From: Candidatus Heimdallarchaeota archaeon
GTDB lineage: Archaea; Asgardarchaeota; Heimdallarchaeia; Heimdallarchaeales; Heimdallarchaeaceae
DNA length: 46,337 nt
Reading direction: 5' to 3'
Assembly (NCBI GenBank): GCA_019057375.1
Contig: DXJF01000069.1
Coordinates: 1 to 46,337, forward strand
A model generated the notes under the pieces. The model had not been told where the DNA came from and ran no database searches. It saw only the letters and a program-made list of their open reading frames with translations. The position numbers and the translations under genes are program-made. The stretch's first letter is position 1. Each line of letters begins with the position of its first letter. Shown here piece by piece: positions 1 to 9,268 of this stretch.

Positions 1-501
1 ACAAATTTTGAAGGAAAATTTTGGAAATTAGAAAATAATAGAAACTATCCAAAACCAATCCAAAAACCTCATCCACAGATTGTTTTAGGCACTACTGGTA
101 GAAGAATGACTGAAATCGCTTGTAGGGAAGCAGATGGAATAAATCTACCATATGTTAAAAAGGATGATTTACCTAAGACAATTAATAATATTCACAAACA
201 CTTGGAGAAATTTAACAGAACTAATGAAAAATTTGAAATCTCTTACTTTGGTGGAATAAACCTAGTTAGTAGTCAAGAAGAAATTGACAATCTTGTAAAT
301 ACAATTATTGATAGAGCAAAAGAAGATGCAAAACCATCCCGAGAGGAAGTGTTGAAAAATCAATTTATAGGATATCCTGAAGATATCAAAGAGAAAATAA
401 AAGAGTATGAAGATCTGGGGATTAATAAGATGGTAATTGCTATAAGAAAATCTGATACCATTGAAGATCCGCTTAAGATGTTCTACGATAGAGTAATGTA
501 A
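1..501 (+). CDS. LLM-class (luciferase-like, flavin/F420-dependent) oxidoreductase, 5'-truncated by window edge
   Basis: Frame +1 is open from base 1 and reads TNFEGKFWKLENNRNYPKPIQKPHPQIVLGTTGRRMTEIACREADG, matching the typical LLM segment F.G.(F/Y)..L......PKP.Q.PHP.I..G.......A...ADG. The ORF track started it at an internal Met (106). Confidence 0.8.
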   Translation, partial: TNFEGKFWKLENNRNYPKPIQKPHPQIVLGTTGRRMTEIACREADGINLPYVKKDDLPKTINNIHKHLEKFNRTNEKFEISYFGGINLVSSQEEIDNLVNTIIDRAKEDAKPSREEVLKNQFIGYPEDIKEKIKEYEDLGINKMVIAIRKSDTIEDPLKMFYDRVM

Positions 502-506
502 GAGGA

Positions 507-755
507 ATGAAAATGTATTCGAGTATATTAACACGTTTAAGAATAATAATCGCTGAAATGGCAGATGTAAGAAGTCATGTTGTTACAACAAATACTTACT
601 TTCAAGATGACTTAAACCTCAGTAATAATGATTTAAAAGAACTTGGTATAAGAATCGAAGATGAATTCGACATTAAATTACCTAAAAAAGTTTTCAAGGA
701 ATTTAACACCGTTGGAGAAATTGTTGGTCTTATTGAAGCAGAAAGGGGAAGATAA
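507..755 (+). CDS. Acyl-carrier-protein-like protein (non-canonical phosphopantetheine motif)
   Basis: 82 aa; F.DDL....D..EL...IEDEFDIKLP.......TVGEIV aligns with the ACP fold. GAGGA precedes the ATG. The position of the DSL motif reads SNN. Confidence 0.75.
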   Translation: MKMYSSILTRLRIIIAEMADVRSHVVTTNTYFQDDLNLSNNDLKELGIRIEDEFDIKLPKKVFKEFNTVGEIVGLIEAERGR

Positions 756-780: not shown

Positions 781-2055
781 TTAAAGTACTTTTTCTCCTT
801 CTTCTAAACTTAACATTGTAAAACCGCTTATCATCTTAGGATAGAAGTCAGTGGCTTTCTGAGGCATTCTTTCATGGTTTTTAGAAACTTTTAGAACTTC
901 ATCAGCAGAAGTTGGATTAAGAATAAAAGCTACCTTGTAAGTACCTTTGTCGACCTCTTCAACAGCTTCATTCCACCATCTTTCATAGAAAATGTCATCA
1001 TCGATGTGAAGTTCTTCAAGACCCATGATTCCATGGAATATCATATCTCTCAGAATGACTACATCGAGGTTTTTGTATTCCTCACTTACATCGCTGACAT
1101 ATCTATTAATTGCAGAAATGTCTTTCATTATCAAGGAAATAGCTCTACTATCCTGATACATAATAAAGGCATGTTTATCCTCATTCTCTTCAAGGAATTT
1201 AGGAATTTCAGATCTCATTATTTCATCCATGTCAAAGAAAATCTTGAGTTCATTCATTTTTTCTTCAGAAACAGAAACTTTAGCTAAGCATCGATGAGTT
1301 GCTAAGATGACTAATCCTTCATCCTCGACAGGTACTAAATAAGTCATGCGAAATTCAGGGGCAGCATTTTCATTCCTAACACCAGCTTTCTCTCTGCGCA
1401 TATCTCGATAGGTGATAGCTGTTTCATAACGATGGTGTCCGTCGGCAATTACTAATTGTTGTTCAGCAAACATATCTTGAATTATCTTGATTTGCACAGG
1501 ATTAGAAATTTTCCAGATTCTATTTAAAACCCCTAGATCATCTTTAGCTTTTATTAGAGGTTCTTCTTTTGCAATTTCATCAAACAGATTGATTGTCTTC
1601 TTCTCTGGATCTGAATAAAGTATAAAACCAGTTTCTAAGGTATGTTTGGTTGTCTTCAACATATTCAATCTATCGATTTTTGGTCCACTATGTGTTTTTT
1701 CATGAGGTAGAACAATATTCTCTTTGAAAGGATGGAGTCTTAGTGCTCCTATGAATCCTTTTCTGATATATTGCTTTCCAAATAATTCATATTCTTGATA
1801 ATAAACATAAATTCCAGGAACTTCATCTTTTTCCAATATTCCTTCAGCTAACCATTGTTCTAACCTTTGTCTTGCAATTTCATACCTGTTTTCTTCAATT
1901 GGTAAGGTTAATCTGCAATAGTTATATTCTGATTGAGCGTAATAAGCTTCTTGCATTTCTGCATCAATTTTATCATAAGGCTGGACTATTAGCTTTTCGA
2001 TGTCTCCAGCTTTTTCAGTATATCTTATAGCTTTGAATGGTTTAATGTCTACCAT
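781..2055 (-). CDS. DUF1015 family protein (ParB/Srx-like fold)
   Basis: N-terminal I.PFKAIRY, HEKT....K.DRL, IADGHHRYETA and C-terminal MPQK.T.FYPK..SG motifs. ATG at 2055 preferred over TTG at 2064. Confidence 0.9.
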   Translation of the reverse strand: MVDIKPFKAIRYTEKAGDIEKLIVQPYDKIDAEMQEAYYAQSEYNYCRLTLPIEENRYEIARQRLEQWLAEGILEKDEVPGIYVYYQEYELFGKQYIRKGFIGALRLHPFKENIVLPHEKTHSGPKIDRLNMLKTTKHTLETGFILYSDPEKKTINLFDEIAKEEPLIKAKDDLGVLNRIWKISNPVQIKIIQDMFAEQQLVIADGHHRYETAITYRDMRREKAGVRNENAAPEFRMTYLVPVEDEGLVILATHRCLAKVSVSEEKMNELKIFFDMDEIMRSEIPKFLEENEDKHAFIMYQDSRAISLIMKDISAINRYVSDVSEEYKNLDVVILRDMIFHGIMGLEELHIDDDIFYERWWNEAVEEVDKGTYKVAFILNPTSADEVLKVSKNHERMPQKATDFYPKMISGFTMLSLEEGEKVL

Positions 2056-2161
2056 TGTAATCAAACTAGCTCTTCAAGAAATCTATTTTAATTTTGTTAT
2101 TAGAATATAGAATTAATGGATTGTATTTATAGAGAGTTTAGAATATAATCACCAAAGAAGA

Positions 2162-2207
2162 ATGATATACCATTCCAACACGATATATCTTACACAAGAT
2201 ATATCTT
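2162..2207. promoter_or_regulatory. Three tandem GATATA(T/C)C palindromic boxes in the DUF1015/actin divergent intergenic region
   Basis: atgatataccat (2162-2173), acgatatatctt (2180-2191) and the perfect palindrome aagatatatctt (2196-2207), just upstream of TATA-like tttattaaat (~2217-2226). Confidence 0.5.
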
Positions 2208-2302
2208 CAATAATGTTTATTAAATTTGAAATAATATTCTTGCATTAGAAGAAGGCGATTAAAATTAAACCAAAATCAAAACCCAAACACTGTGGTAAAA
2301 CC

Positions 2303-3718
2303 ATGCATCGGCTTTACATCAGAAAAGGTACAAAAAAAAGAACATGGATAGCAGTTGGGTATTATTGTGATGAGTGTTCTAAGACTTTGAAAGGAAATGA
2401 TTTAATGAAAACAGGAGGTTTACAAAATCTACCTGAGGATTTAATAGAACTGAAGGACAGAGTTACTAATCCTAAGACTATCGTATTAGATCCAGGTTAT
2501 TCTTTAACCAAAGTTGGATTTACAGGAGAAAAAGAACCTAGATTCATTTTCGATTCAGCAGTCTATTTTACAGATACTGAAGATTCCTTTATTCAAAATG
2601 CAAATAAAATTGAAACAAAAACTAGAGTAAAAAAGACTAGCAACTTATTTCGTAAACTGAAAAATAGTGAAGTACTTGATCAAGAAGTGTTTGATATATT
2701 TCTTGCACATATTTTCGAGAAATTAAAAATTAAGTCTTCAGAAACAGCTGTATGGGTTGTTGAAAAATATTACAATGCCAGATTTTCAGATTACTTAAAA
2801 GGCAGATTGGATGTCATCAATAATAATTCTTTACCGGAGAAAGCTAAAGATTTTCTTAGAAAGGAGAAAATGGTTGAGTTTATCAACGGGTTTGAAACTG
2901 CATTCTCTATTAGACGAGCTATGTCAGAAGTGTTTTTTAATAGATTTAATATTCCTAAAGTATATTTCTCATTAGGTGAACTCCTCTCACTCTATGCAGA
3001 TGAACGAGTTACAGGAGTTGTAGTGGGAATAGGAGCAAGTTCAACTAGAATAATTCCCATCTATGAAGGTTTCATTATATCTCACGGAGTCAGCATACGT
3101 GAGAAAGCTGGGCAAGATGTTGTCAAACAACTTGAAAAATATGTACAAAAAGAGGGTGGAGATATACCAAAAACCCCTCATGAAAAGAGTCAGATACTAA
3201 AGAATATTCGATTAGTATCTGAAGAATTATGTTATATTTCACAAAACATCAAAGAAGAAAGTCAGAAGTGGACTCAATCAGATAAATATATCAAATCCAT
3301 AAATATTATTAACGATAAACACGTCAAATTGGATGAAATCAGATATCTCGCACCAGAAATTCTGTTTGAAGAAGAGCCACTGAGTATCTTGAATAATCCA
3401 GGAGACTTAGCTGATGCTGTTATTGAATCTATTCAGAAGTGTGATAAAGGATTAGCTAAAAGTCTATATGCCAACATATTGCTAGTAGGGGGAGGTTCGA
3501 TGTTTGAAGGTTTTAAGGAAAGGTTCACTAAATCTTTTAAATCAAAAGTTTCAGATCACTTGATTTTCAATATAACTGCAAAGTCTGATAGACTTATTTC
3601 AGGTTGGATTGGTGGATCAATACTTTCTGGTATGAAACTTTTTGAAGAACGCAACTTCTGGGTTTCTAAAGCTGAATACGATGAGAAGGGATCAAAAGCT
3701 GTTGATAGATGCATTTAA
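2303..3718 (+). CDS. Divergent actin-family protein (Asgard actin-related protein) with N-terminal Cys/His ribbon
   Basis: Phosphate-1 VLDPGYSLTKVGFTGEKEPR; FNIPKVY..L...LSLYA...TGVVV.IG..ST.IIPIYEG; RYLAPEILF; IQKCDKGLAKSLYANILLVGGGSMFEG; WIGGSILS and WVSKAEYDEKG..AV.RC are all collinear with eukaryotic actin. The true start may lie upstream (see findings). Confidence 0.92.
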   Translation: MHRLYIRKGTKKRTWIAVGYYCDECSKTLKGNDLMKTGGLQNLPEDLIELKDRVTNPKTIVLDPGYSLTKVGFTGEKEPRFIFDSAVYFTDTEDSFIQNANKIETKTRVKKTSNLFRKLKNSEVLDQEVFDIFLAHIFEKLKIKSSETAVWVVEKYYNARFSDYLKGRLDVINNNSLPEKAKDFLRKEKMVEFINGFETAFSIRRAMSEVFFNRFNIPKVYFSLGELLSLYADERVTGVVVGIGASSTRIIPIYEGFIISHGVSIREKAGQDVVKQLEKYVQKEGGDIPKTPHEKSQILKNIRLVSEELCYISQNIKEESQKWTQSDKYIKSINIINDKHVKLDEIRYLAPEILFEEEPLSILNNPGDLADAVIESIQKCDKGLAKSLYANILLVGGGSMFEGFKERFTKSFKSKVSDHLIFNITAKSDRLISGWIGGSILSGMKLFEERNFWVSKAEYDEKGSKAVDRCI

Positions 3719-7606: not shown

Positions 7607-9268
7607 ATGGTAAGGTTTTTTAGGTCGAGTTTTGAATTGTGGTTGATGGCTATCCAAGATAGAGATAAACAGAAGTCAGCATTGAAAAAAACTCTTCAAA
7701 AATTTACAGAGTTATTGCCTTCTGTTAAACCTGAAGTACCTCCTGCTGAAAAAGCGTTAGTTATTATTGATGGTACTGCTAAATCAAAAGCAGCTGTTCT
7801 GTGTGCAGGGGAGCTAAATAGACATTTTGGAACAAAAATCGATGTTGTTTGTTTCTATACAGAACAACCTCCAACAACTTCAGAGACAACTAAAGAAAGC
7901 TATGAAGCCTCTCTAGCTTTCGCATATGAACATCTTCGTAGTGAGGATTTTGAAATTAAAGGAGAAGTTGTTGAAAACTTGGAAAATCTTAGGTCTATTC
8001 TGGACAATGTTCTTCTGACAACAGAATATGATCTTATTATTGTACCTTCCTCATTTATAGGCTTGGAGGAAAAGCAGATAACTGAAGATGAAGATGAAGA
8101 TACAGAAGCCAGTATTACAGTTTTAGGAAGTTTATTTGATCATCTTCTAGAAGATATCGAAGAGATCCCTGTTCTTTTAGTAGAGAGTGAAAGGATAAAT
8201 CTCGACTTACTATTCAAAAATATTGGTTTATTTTTCAGCAATACTACACAATTACCTTATATGTTTGAAAAAGCTCTAAAATATAGTTTAAAGAAATCGG
8301 ATATACATTGTTTGATTAATATTGATCCAAGTTATCATGAAAGTAAAAGTAAAGAGGAATTAGAAGCTCTTGTAAAGAAATCAAAAGAAGATTTAGAAAG
8401 GTTTGAAAGAGCAAATTCAGAAGTCTTTCGTGAAGCATCAAGATTCGTCGATACACACATAATGTCAACAGACAGTGTAGAAGTTTTTAAACAGGAACTC
8501 TCAAGGTTCGGCAAGGATACGGGTATTCTTATGATTTATATGCCCACTACACATTCTAGCCTCTATGGTTTTTTCACAGATTTGCTTGAAGATCCAGATA
8601 TAGCATTTCCAATTTTAATTGCAAAAGGAAAAATAGTAGTTGAAAAAGAAGAACCAAAGGAAGAAGAAGAAGAAGAACAGGAAGAACAAGAAGAAGTGGA
8701 GGAAGTAAAGGAAGTTAAGGGAGAAGAGGAAGAGAAGATTGTCCTGGATGAATCCTTAAAAAACTCAATCAAAGAGAAAGTGAAGAAGGATATTTTAGGG
8801 ATTACTGATAAAGAAGAGTCAGAGGAAGAGGGAGTAAAAAAGATTCCTGAGATTAAAGAAGATATGCATGTTGAAGAAAAGGAGGAAGAGGATATGACTG
8901 AGATGGACGAAATCAAAGAAGAAGTAAAGGAAGAAGTAATTGAAGAGATAAAGAAAGAAGTCGTTAAAGAGGTTAAAGATGAACCTAAAAAAGAAATAAA
9001 GAAAGAAGTATCTAAAGAGCTCAAAAAAGAAGAAAGTATTGAAGAGCTGAAAGAAACGATTATTGAAGAAATCAAAGAAGAGATCAAAGAGGAAATCAAG
9101 TATGAATTAAGAAAGGATCTCAAGGAACCTAAAAAAGAATTGAAAGAAAAAGTCATTGAAGAAATAAAAGAAATGAAAATTCCTGAAGAGGAAGAAGTTG
9201 AGGAAGAAATTTCTGAAGAGGAAGTAGAAGAGGAAAACGCGGTAGCTTCCAGAACTGACTTTGAATAA
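7607..9268 (+). CDS. Tandem universal-stress-protein (USP)-like domains with ~210-aa Glu/Lys-rich tail
   Basis: KALVIIDGTAKSKAAV..A.EL...G.KI.VV; DLIIVP...GSLFDHLLE..EIPVLLV; a second degenerate USP ending in PILIAK; then (E/K/I/V)-rich repeats. Start may be ATG 7646. Confidence 0.65.
   Translation: MVRFFRSSFELWLMAIQDRDKQKSALKKTLQKFTELLPSVKPEVPPAEKALVIIDGTAKSKAAVLCAGELNRHFGTKIDVVCFYTEQPPTTSETTKESYEASLAFAYEHLRSEDFEIKGEVVENLENLRSILDNVLLTTEYDLIIVPSSFIGLEEKQITEDEDEDTEASITVLGSLFDHLLEDIEEIPVLLVESERINLDLLFKNIGLFFSNTTQLPYMFEKALKYSLKKSDIHCLINIDPSYHESKSKEELEALVKKSKEDLERFERANSEVFREASRFVDTHIMSTDSVEVFKQELSRFGKDTGILMIYMPTTHSSLYGFFTDLLEDPDIAFPILIAKGKIVVEKEEPKEEEEEEQEEQEEVEEVKEVKGEEEEKIVLDESLKNSIKEKVKKDILGITDKEESEEEGVKKIPEIKEDMHVEEKEEEDMTEMDEIKEEVKEEVIEEIKKEVVKEVKDEPKKEIKKEVSKELKKEESIEELKETIIEEIKEEIKEEIKYELRKDLKEPKKELKEKVIEEIKEMKIPEEEEVEEEISEEEVEEENAVASRTDFE
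9065..9100 (+). repeat. 12-bp tandem repeat x3 encoding (EEIK)3 within the E/K-rich tail
   Basis: gaagaaatcaaa gaagagatcaaa gaggaaatcaag. Confidence 0.7.

What the first reader, a model, noticed from the sequence alone, without database searches (positions are those of the whole stretch)
2480..3718. Actin-related protein with hydrolysis residues substituted, altered D-loop region and a ~41-aa insertion
Seen in gap-free local alignments to alpha-actin: D11, G13 and K18 are kept, but S14>Y, Q137>G, D154>G, D157>A and H161>R. The H73 sensor-loop motif (PIEHG) is not recognisable and the D-loop region is remodelled. There are 49 residues between the E107 and R116 equivalents instead of 8. The adenosine motif (GGGSMFEG) and the actin-like C-terminus (WVSKAEYDEKG..V.RCI) are retained. 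Established: Q137, D154 and H161 serve Mg/ATP hydrolysis, and eukaryotic nuclear ARPs show such losses and insertions. Inference: a non-hydrolysing, probably non-polymerising scaffold ARP distinct from lokiactins, relevant to ARP origins.
Basis: partly seen in the sequence, partly recalled or inferred. Interest (0 to 1): 0.8.

Follow-up and report, generated by a model that had tools for sequence, protein, structure and literature searches.

The report
Zinc-ribbon actin relative of Heimdallarchaea
This is a real, conserved but heavily remodelled extra actin gene found only in a few Heimdall-group Asgard archaea; it has lost actin's ATP-splitting residues and filament loop, carries a small zinc-ribbon head, and sits behind a DNA box array found nowhere else in the genome, so it may be a DNA-linked regulator or anchor instead of a filament builder.

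Summary
ORF 2303..3718 is an actin-fold protein (Pfam Actin 5e-61; model Z 41.5 to alpha-actin). It has S14Y, Q137G, D154G, D157A and H161R, a deleted D-loop, no PIEHG motif, and a 41-aa insert in the Pro-rich loop. Across about 40 orthologues the losses are family-wide: H161R is invariant, D154 is N/G, and Q137 varies.

- The protein is distinct from the genome's canonical actin. A recent origin from it is rejected (AU p=0.008).
- Loss of hydrolysis and of canonical polymerisation is a reasonable inference, not shown.
- "Relevant to ARP origins" is not supported. The family is confined to one Heimdallarchaeial order and has no supported affinity to any eukaryotic ARP.

- A conserved N-terminal HC..CxxC zinc-ribbon-like head. 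In this genome it starts upstream of the first ATG.
- A promoter array, GATATACCATT-N7-GRTATAYC-N8-GATATAYC. It lies upstream of every complete orthologue examined (one has a degenerate middle box). The two-box core occurs once per carrier genome apart from one coding-repeat match. It also precedes an unrelated gene that carries the same head.

Best reading (about 0.5): a non-hydrolysing actin-fold protein tethered to its own promoter boxes. This scan has already reported the family and this reading from seven other genomes. I found no paper describing it.

The parts
2164..2205 (.). Array of three palindromic boxes: GATATACC at 2164-2171 (followed by ATT), GATATATC at 2182-2189, GATATATC at 2198-2205. 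Spacing is 18 and 16 bp, directly upstream of the BRE/TATA region.
   Evidence: This is the only cluster of 3 or more boxes in the 3.47-Mb genome. The same array with the same spacing is upstream of nearly every complete orthologue examined in g1, g2 and g6; one g1 orthologue (L019/L076) has a degenerate middle box. The two-box core occurs once per genome and only in carriers, with 1 hit for the reversed control pattern.
2216..2225 (+). TATA-like box TTTATTAAAT. This is the putative promoter of the gene. A transcript start is expected near 2245-2250 (inference).
   Evidence: Read from the sequence. The position and AT-rich motif are conserved in orthologous loci. No transcript data could be obtained.
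2249..2302 (+). 18 in-frame codons upstream of the first ATG, encoding KKAIKIKPKSKPKHCGKT. This is the first knuckle (H-C) of the zinc-ribbon head. There is no ATG, GTG or TTG. Candidate non-canonical starts are ATT at 2258 and ATT at 2264.
   Evidence: all other orthologues have a canonical start 11-16 codons upstream of the Met that equals 2303. The 91%-identical G019 locus shares the missing start. The stretch differs from G019 at 3 of 54 bases, the same rate as the intergenic DNA (10 of 184), so constraint cannot be shown.
2282..2392 (+). N-terminal zinc-ribbon-like head: PKHCG..M.R.YIRKGT..R.W..VGYYC..C, a three-stranded beta module rich in Lys and Arg.
   Evidence: H, C and CxxC plus YIRKGT, R and W are invariant in the family. 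An AF2 model of the head alone has pLDDT 79 with strands 17-23, 29-36 and 43-45. The best fold matches are weak and are GRF-type zinc ribbons (Z 3.3 and 2.7). A stand-alone relative has a full CxxC..CxxC.
2399..2455 (+). Flexible, poorly conserved linker between the head and the actin fold.
   Evidence: pLDDT is below 50 for model residues 48-66. The columns are variable in A1.
2471..3718 (+). Actin fold with all four subdomains (P0001 residues about 57-471, plus the stop codon).
   Evidence: Pfam Actin 5e-61. AF2 pLDDT 87, pTM 0.81. VIA Z 41.5, rmsd 2.4 A over 352 residues to alpha-actin 8gt3. Foldseek top hits are all actins.
2489..2512 (+). Phosphate-1 loop DPGYSLTK. D11, G13 and K18 are kept. 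S14->Y and G15->S.
   Evidence: Positions 14 and 15 vary within the family. D63, G65 and T69 are invariant and K70 is nearly invariant.
2558..2677 (+). Remodelled subdomain 2. The D-loop is deleted (12-residue gap against actin), the PIEHG sensor motif is absent, and a family-specific FIQ motif is present.
   Evidence: The N-terminal half has no significant solved relative beyond the P1 loop.
2765..2911 (+). The 49 residues between the E107 and R116 equivalents, i.e. a 41-aa insert in the Pro-rich loop (actin 108-112). It is predicted as three short helices with a conserved core, LKGRxDVINNSTLPEKAK.
   Evidence: alignment; conservation; G167, L177 and L185 are invariant; helices at model 176-180, 184-187 and 194-202; pLDDT 85-96.
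2975..2977 (+). Codon of G225, the equivalent of the catalytic Q137.
   Evidence: The position is G, K, E or N in the family, and Q in one member only.
3026..3049 (+). Phosphate-2 loop GIGASSTR. D154->G, D157->A, H161->R.
   Evidence: G244, T248 and R249 are invariant. Position 154 is N in most members and G in this subclade.
3488..3511 (+). Adenosine-binding motif GGGSMFEG, retained.
   Evidence: G396, G397 and G403 are invariant.

Best explanation
The gene encodes a lineage-specific actin-fold protein of Heimdallarchaeaceae and a sister family. Besides it the genome has one canonical actin gene.

Shown:
- The four-subdomain actin fold, the adenosine pocket and the barbed-face cleft motifs (LSLYA, PIYEGF, WIGGSIL..F) are kept.
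- The residues that activate water and hold Mg for ATP hydrolysis are replaced in the whole family: Q137, D154, D157, and H161 changed to an invariant Arg.
- The D-loop is deleted.
- A conserved, structured 41-aa insert fills the 108-113 loop.
- A basic HC..CxxC zinc-ribbon-like head is joined to the fold by a flexible linker.
- An array of three GRTATAYC palindromes sits just upstream of the gene's TATA box. It is unique in each genome and travels with the gene.

Inferred:
- The protein may still bind nucleotide but does not hydrolyse it at actin's rate.
- It cannot make canonical double-stranded F-actin contacts through its pointed face or its lateral face.
- The head is a nucleic-acid-binding module that recognises the boxes. 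The protein would then sit on its own promoter and control its own expression.
- The actin body would serve as a nucleotide-state or partner-binding module. Its intact barbed-face cleft is free for a partner such as the D-loop of the canonical actin, or a profilin- or gelsolin-type protein.
For: Fold and family:
-.

Family-wide loss of catalytic residues, D-loop deletion and the insert:
-.

Purifying selection:
- dN/dS is 0.21.

The head:
- It is conserved and folds as a beta zinc-ribbon-like module.
- The best, weak, fold matches are ssDNA/RNA-binding GRF zinc ribbons.
- A distant stand-alone relative (30% identical to the head in A4) gives a weak Pfam hit to a GRF-like ribbon.

The boxes:
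- This is the only triple cluster in the genome.
- The extended first box is not enriched genome-wide: 15 found against 22 expected. All other copies are in coding sequence.
- The array lies upstream of every complete orthologue examined, including g2 where the neighbouring genes differ.
- The two-box core occurs once per genome, only in carrier genomes and next to the gene.

Link between head and boxes in a second architecture:
- P0128 has the same head on an unrelated 390-aa body. It has two exact and two one-mismatch boxes within 200 bp upstream.
- Three homologues of that body without the head have no boxes in their promoters.
Against: - No binding, ATPase or polymerisation data exist.
- The fold matches of the head are weak (Z 3.3).
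- More distant head homologues (P0127, P0250) have no boxes upstream.
- The head has only three Cys plus a His adjacent to one Cys, so zinc binding itself is an inference.
- In this genome the first knuckle lies upstream of any canonical start codon. If translation starts at ATG 2303, the head would be incomplete here.
- The boxes could be bound by a separate transcription factor.
- One genus member (G025) has deleted the gene but still has intact boxes. The deletion looks recent: the last 30 nt of the gene remain at about 90% identity.
- The box link to a second architecture rests on a single contig.
Confidence: 0.5

Rival explanations
1. Filament-end cap or anchor. The protein docks with its conserved barbed-face cleft onto the D-loops at the pointed end of the canonical actin filament. 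Lacking a D-loop of its own, it blocks or nucleates growth there, in the manner of Arp10/11 or Arp2/3. The zinc-ribbon head tethers the end to another partner, and the promoter boxes are bound by a separate transcription factor.
For: Barbed-face motifs are conserved while the D-loop is deleted. The model is closest to conventional actin (Z 41.5). FastTree placed the family near Arp10 and a Hodarchaeales ARP.
Against: The Arp10 grouping disappears under the mixture model. The 41-aa insert sits where the cross-strand contact of a two-stranded filament is made (established F-actin contacts K113-E195). This reading does not explain why the box array follows the head in two protein architectures. 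The gene is dispensable: it was found in 16 of 24 genus members at E<=1e-60, one further genome (G011) holds a contig-truncated copy, and one case is a clean recent deletion.
Confidence: 0.2
2. A fused adaptor-plus-motor DNA segregation device, analogous to ParR/ParM/parC. The head binds the box array as a centromere-like site, and the actin body self-assembles into a non-canonical polymer or couples the locus to actin filaments.
For: There is a unique repeated site directly upstream of an actin-fold gene, as parC lies upstream of parM (the parC arrangement is established knowledge). The head is on a flexible tether.
Against: Catalytic residues that drive dynamic polymers are lost. There are only 3 boxes. 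The gene is absent from about a quarter to a third of genus members. There is no evidence of self-assembly.
Confidence: 0.08
3. An ancient ARP lineage that bears on the origin of eukaryotic nuclear ARPs.
For: It lies outside the canonical-actin clade. A recent origin from the local actin is rejected. Asgard ARPs are reported to cluster with eukaryotic ARPs in published trees (PMC9834061). A DPGY P1 loop is shared with one solved Arp4.
Against: Distribution is limited to one order. There is no supported sister relation to any labelled eukaryotic group. Sister to the Asgard actins is not rejected. The DPGY motif is confined to this subclade of the family, so it is convergent. Arp2-9 could not be sampled with names.
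Confidence: 0.1
4. An ordinary, hydrolysing, filament-forming actin isoform whose differences are neutral drift.
For: The overall fold and the adenosine pocket are intact.
Against: The substitutions hit exactly the catalytic and polymerisation elements and are fixed under purifying selection. Identity to the canonical actin is only 32%.
Confidence: 0.03

Closest known systems
Canonical Asgard actin (lokiactin): the genome's own copy on contig C132, and the best solved sequence match, PDB 9wc4 'HC1 actin'
   Same: Same Pfam family and four-subdomain fold. The adenosine motif, hinge, barbed-face cleft motifs and C-terminal ..RCI are shared. The C-terminal two thirds align at about 35-40% identity.
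   Different: 32% identity overall. It has no D-loop, no PIEHG motif, and Q137, D154, D157 and H161 are replaced. It has a 41-aa insert in the Pro-rich loop and an N-terminal zinc-ribbon head. It forms a separate long-branch clade.
Uncharacterised Asgard ARPs (for example the three non-lokiactin homologues of Ca. Lokiarchaeum ossiferum, PMC9834061 Fig. 5d)
   Same: Divergent, low-copy actin paralogues of Asgard archaea with patchy distribution. No function has been tested for them.
   Different: This family forms its own clade and does not group with the Loki, Hodarchaeales or other Heimdall paralogues sampled. The head-plus-box arrangement was seen only here and at P0128.
Eukaryotic ARPs with degenerate nucleotide sites or capping roles (Arp4, Arp7, Arp8, Arp9 of remodellers; Arp10/11 of dynactin)
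   Same: An actin fold used as a non-polymerising module. Catalytic or D-loop elements are lost, with loop insertions. One stacking face is kept. These points for the ARPs rest on established knowledge, not on tests here.
   Different: There is no supported orthology. Eukaryotic ARPs work inside multi-subunit complexes and carry no zinc-ribbon head.
GRF-type zinc ribbons (APE2, NEIL3, ZCCHC4)
   Same: A small three-stranded zinc ribbon with a C/H-C...C-x2-C ligand pattern, a basic surface and nucleic-acid binding. These are the top fold matches of the head (Z 3.3 and 2.7).
   Different: The matches are weak. GRF domains bind single-stranded DNA or RNA without known sequence specificity. The GRxF signature is absent.
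Type II plasmid partition (ParM / ParR / parC)
   Same: An actin-fold protein gene lies immediately downstream of a short array of repeated protein-binding sites that overlaps its own promoter. This is an analogy only.
   Different: In the plasmid system ParR is a separate RHH protein, ParM is an active ATPase polymer, and parC has 10 repeats. Here the putative DNA-binding part is fused to the actin fold and the ATPase is degenerate.

Membership tests
Actin family (Pfam PF00022) | Profile score above the curated cut-off, and a four-subdomain actin fold | tested here: met
   207 bits against a cut-off of 27. Z 41.5, rmsd 2.4 A over 352 residues to actin.
Conventional actin / lokiactin | Catalytic Q137, H161, D154 and D157, and the S14/G15 phosphate loop | tested here: not met
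   G225, R249, G242, A245, Y66 and S67 stand in their places. The replacements are family-wide.
Conventional actin / lokiactin | D-loop and H73 sensor loop (PIEHG) for longitudinal contacts and nucleotide sensing | tested here: not met
   There is a 12-residue gap at the D-loop and PIEHG is absent.
Conventional actin / lokiactin | Membership of the canonical Asgard actin clade | tested here: not met
   The canonical clade (97*) excludes it. A clade with the Heimdallarchaeaceae actins is rejected, p=0.008. A sister position to all canonical Asgard actins is not rejected, p=0.09.
Eukaryotic ARP classes (Arp1-Arp10) | Supported orthology to one class in a phylogeny | tested here: inconclusive
   Only Arp1 and Arp10 could be labelled. 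FastTree puts the family near Arp10, but the mixture model does not. Arp2-9 were not sampled by name.
Zinc ribbon (GRF-like) | Four zinc ligands on two knuckles of a three-stranded sheet | tested here: inconclusive
   H-C and C-x2-C are invariant, and a relative has CxxC..CxxC. The beta fold is predicted. The best fold matches reach only Z 3.3. Metal binding cannot be tested here.
Autoregulatory DNA-binding protein | Its own specific binding sites in its own promoter | tested here: met
   A unique box array lies upstream of every complete orthologue examined and of a second head-bearing gene. It is absent from head-less homologues of that gene. This shows co-occurrence only.
Autoregulatory DNA-binding protein | Direct sequence-specific DNA binding by the protein | not testable with these tools
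   This needs EMSA or footprinting.

The most novel reading that the evidence does not exclude
An actin-fold protein that binds DNA sequence-specifically through a fused zinc ribbon, at a site that is unique in the chromosome. At the least it would be a transcription regulator built from actin. At the most it would be a tether that links one chromosomal locus to the Asgard actin cytoskeleton through its intact barbed face. That would be a prokaryotic precedent for actin-family proteins working on DNA or chromatin.
Probability: 0.3. Interest if true: 0.85.

Novelty: new variant of a known kind. Interest (0 to 1): 0.6.

Why it matters
Asgard archaea are known to have 'ARPs', but none has a tested or even proposed function. 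This family gives a concrete hypothesis that can be tested cheaply: a 50-residue head, an 8-bp palindrome, and a 42-bp probe. If the head binds the boxes, it would be the first case of an actin-fold protein acting directly on specific DNA in a prokaryote. It would also show that degenerate, non-polymerising actin modules were recruited for regulatory roles independently of the eukaryotic nuclear ARPs.

It does not, on present evidence, bear on the ancestry of eukaryotic ARPs. The family is narrow, dispensable and phylogenetically unplaced.

Tried and rejected
Jobs that did not run or did not finish:
- Complex prediction of the actin body with the genome's canonical actin was counted but NOT FOLDED, because the alignments held eukaryotic rows. 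There is no information either way.
So there are no transcript data for the start codon or for expression.
- IQ-TREE with the mixture model on 109 rows did not finish. I used FastTree on 109 rows and the mixture model on 52 rows.

Searches that gave little:
- Naming of unnamed actin-family representatives by cluster look-up gave few names. A tree with all ARP classes was therefore not possible.
- Paper searches found Asgard ARPs only as a category and nothing on this family.
- The N-terminal half has no significant solved relative beyond the P1 loop.
- The fold search of the head gave only weak matches.

Leads that turned out uninformative:
- Gene neighbourhood. The DUF1015 / ApbA / serA / aminotransferase order is conserved only within genus g1 and differs in g2. 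The gene is monocistronic.
- Other box clusters in the genome (C63, C65) and the other copies of the extended box, including C17, lie in coding sequence.
- A second match in G025 (contig C12) is a coding HDIS peptide repeat.
- The head occurs nowhere else in this genome.
- More distant head homologues (P0127, P0250) have no boxes upstream.
- Constraint on the 18 upstream codons could not be separated from that on the promoter DNA.
Full report
**1. The gene**

The window has about 32% G+C. The ORF 2303..3718 (+) gives a 471-aa protein, P0001.
- It matches Pfam Actin at 5e-61 over residues 58-469.
- By phmmer it matches solved actins, Arp1 and 'HC1 actin' (9wc4) at about 1e-47 to 1e-49. Only residues 204-469 align well.
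- The assembly is 3.47 Mb in 159 contigs and 89% complete. It has two actin-family genes: a canonical 381-aa actin on contig C132 (447 bits) and this one (201 bits).

**2. The observation**

- D11, G13 and K18 are kept as D63, G65 and K70.
- S14->Y66, Q137->G225, D154->G242, D157->A245, H161->R249.
- The D-loop is a 12-residue gap and PIEHG is gone.
- 49 residues lie between the E107 and R116 equivalents, against 8 in actin. This is a 41-aa insert inside the Pro-rich loop (actin 108-112).
- GGGSMFEG and the actin-like C-terminus are present.

**3. A family, not a one-off**

A search of 5.8 billion clusters found about 40 proteins of 471-519 aa at 41-96% identity. Almost all of those that carry a source name come from Heimdallarchaeota or Heimdallarchaeaceae MAGs. 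After these comes a gap down to 30% identity, where eukaryotic actins and centractins appear.

In 33 aligned members (A1):
- R249 (H161->R), G244 and T248 are invariant.
- Position 154 is N in most members and G in this subclade.
- Position 157 is A, S, G or N.
- Position 137 is G, K, E or N, and Q only once.
- The insert has a conserved core, LKGRxDVINNSTLPEKAK.
- The barbed-face motifs (LSLYA, PIYEGF, WIGGSIL..F) and the adenosine motif are kept.

dN/dS against the 91%-identical orthologue is 0.21, so the gene is under purifying selection.

A profile of the N-terminal half, run against 1.84 billion representatives, finds only 6 at E<1e-10.

In whole genomes the family is present in 16 of 24 members of the genus, 2 of 2 of a second genus, and 1 of 1 of a sister family. 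It is absent from the other 52 genomes of the class that were searched.

**4. Structure**

An AF2 model of the protein read from 2258 has pLDDT 87 and pTM 0.81. It shows three parts:
- a beta-rich head at residues 9-45,
- a disordered linker at 48-66,
- a complete actin fold at 72-486.

The fold aligns to alpha-actin with Z 41.5 and rmsd 2.4 A over 352 residues. Foldseek returns only actins. The insert is predicted as three short helices at high confidence. In F-actin the 110-115 loop makes the cross-strand contact and the D-loop makes the longitudinal contact (established knowledge). Both are altered here, while the cleft that receives a neighbour's D-loop is conserved.

**5. Phylogeny**

I assembled actin-family genes from 10 further Asgard genomes plus the window genome's own actin, together with unnamed and named representatives.
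- The family is monophyletic (100) on a long stem.
- FastTree puts it in a weakly supported long-branch group with Arp10, a Hodarchaeales ARP and some Loki and Heimdall paralogues.
- Under LG+C20 PMSF on 52 rows, that grouping dissolves. The family sits in a polytomy outside the clade of canonical Asgard actins, eukaryotic actin and Arp1 (82).
- AU tests: the family plus all canonical Asgard actins as one clade is not rejected (p=0.09). The family plus the Heimdallarchaeaceae actins as one clade is rejected (p=0.008).

So it is not a recent local duplicate. Nothing ties it to a eukaryotic ARP class, and Arp2-9 could not be sampled by name.

**6. The N-terminal head and the start codon**

All relatives carry ..KPKHCGK.M.R.YIRKGT..RKW..VGYYC..C before the actin fold.

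In this window the codons for KKAIKIKPKSKPKHCGKT lie in frame between the stop at 2246-2248 and ATG 2303. There is no ATG, GTG or TTG among them. The 91%-identical G019 locus is the same. Every other orthologue has a canonical start upstream. Either ATT 2258/2264 is used, or this species pair makes a head without its first knuckle. The stretch is no more conserved than the promoter DNA around it, so this stays open.

The head alone folds as a three-stranded ribbon with pLDDT 79. Its best fold matches are weak and are GRF zinc ribbons of APE2, ZCCHC4 and NEIL3 (Z 3.3-2.7). Related heads occur as stand-alone 47-69-aa proteins, one of them with CxxC..CxxC. The head also occurs at the front of an unrelated 427-aa protein, P0128. 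No Pfam family covers it. It occurs once in this genome.

**7. The promoter boxes**

Upstream of the gene are GATATACC(ATT) at 2164, GATATATC at 2182 and GATATATC at 2198, then a TATA-like box at 2216.
- This is the only cluster of three in the genome. The two two-box clusters elsewhere are in coding sequence.
- The extended first box is not enriched genome-wide, and all its other copies are in coding sequence.
- The same array with the same 18- and 16-bp spacing is upstream of nearly every complete orthologue in three genera (one g1 orthologue has a degenerate middle box; g2 and g6 arrays differ in box number). This holds even where the neighbouring genes differ.
- Across 83 genomes of the class, the two-box core occurs once per genome, next to the gene, and only in the two genera g1 and g2. 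The reversed control gives 1 hit.
- The g6 copy has 17-bp spacing and is seen.

Two apparent exceptions were resolved.
- G011 has the gene cut off by a contig end.
- G025 has a clean internal deletion of the gene. It leaves the promoter, the boxes and the last 30 nt. Its second match is a coding peptide repeat.

The P0128 gene, which has the same head on a different body, has two exact and two one-mismatch boxes within 200 bp upstream. Three homologues of that body without the head have none in their promoters. More distant head homologues lack boxes.

**8. Reading**

The safest statement is this: it is a catalytically degenerate actin-fold protein that does not polymerise in the canonical way, it carries a zinc-ribbon-like head, and it is under purifying selection. 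The most likely mechanism, at about 0.5, is that the head binds the boxes, so that the protein occupies and regulates its own promoter. The rivals are:
- a pointed-end cap or anchor for the canonical actin, with the boxes bound by another factor;
- a ParR/ParM-like fused segregation device;
- an ancient ARP lineage;
- an ordinary actin.

**9. Prior knowledge**

Papers mention Asgard ARPs only as a category (PMC9834061). I found none on this family. This scan had already reported the same family, and the same head-plus-boxes reading, from seven other genomes. I reached that reading before seeing those notes, so it is a repeat on new DNA and not independent evidence of function.

New to my own analysis on this window, and not stated in the short notes the look-up returned:
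- the missing canonical start codon,
- the AU tests,
- the G025 deletion allele,
- the contrast between head-bearing and head-less homologues of the P0128 body.

Noticed in passing
window 2249-2302: The first knuckle of the zinc-ribbon head is encoded upstream of the first ATG with no canonical start codon. The closest relative (G019) shares this. Either an ATT start is used or the head is truncated.
   Followed up: partly
L084 (G025:C159) 2375-2603: A genus member has a clean internal deletion of about 1.4 kb of this gene. The promoter, the three boxes and the last 30 nt of the ORF remain between ApbA and DUF1015. The gene is therefore dispensable and the loss is recent.
   Followed up: yes
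L079 228-1550 (protein P0128): The same zinc-ribbon head is fused to an unrelated body of about 390 aa with no Pfam family, and similar boxes lie upstream. Homologues of the body in three Asgard genomes lack both the head and the boxes.
   Followed up: partly
window 781-2064 (-): A DUF1015 gene is the divergent neighbour in all genus-g1 loci but not in g2. Its own promoter motif (CTCTATTTTAATTTT on the + strand) is conserved.
   Followed up: partly
window 507-755 (+) and 1-501 (+): A small ACP-like ORF (weak PP-binding hit in orthologous loci) follows a luciferase-like monooxygenase gene. The pair is conserved in the genus.
   Followed up: no
window 7607-9268 (+): A 553-aa protein with a very long Glu/Lys-rich low-complexity C-terminal half. 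It is conserved in position in related genomes and has no Pfam hit on record.
   Followed up: no
L061, L065, L058 (Loki-type genomes G163, G134, G143): A separate, well-supported clade of actin-family proteins of about 510-536 aa. Earlier notes of this scan describe them as ARPs with a double zinc-ribbon insertion. Tethering zinc ribbons to degenerate actin folds may therefore be recurrent in Asgard archaea.
   Followed up: no
L083 (G025:C12) 2345-3139: A membrane protein with a tandem HDIS/HDVS peptide repeat. Its codons mimic the box pattern, so it is a false positive for the box search.
   Followed up: yes
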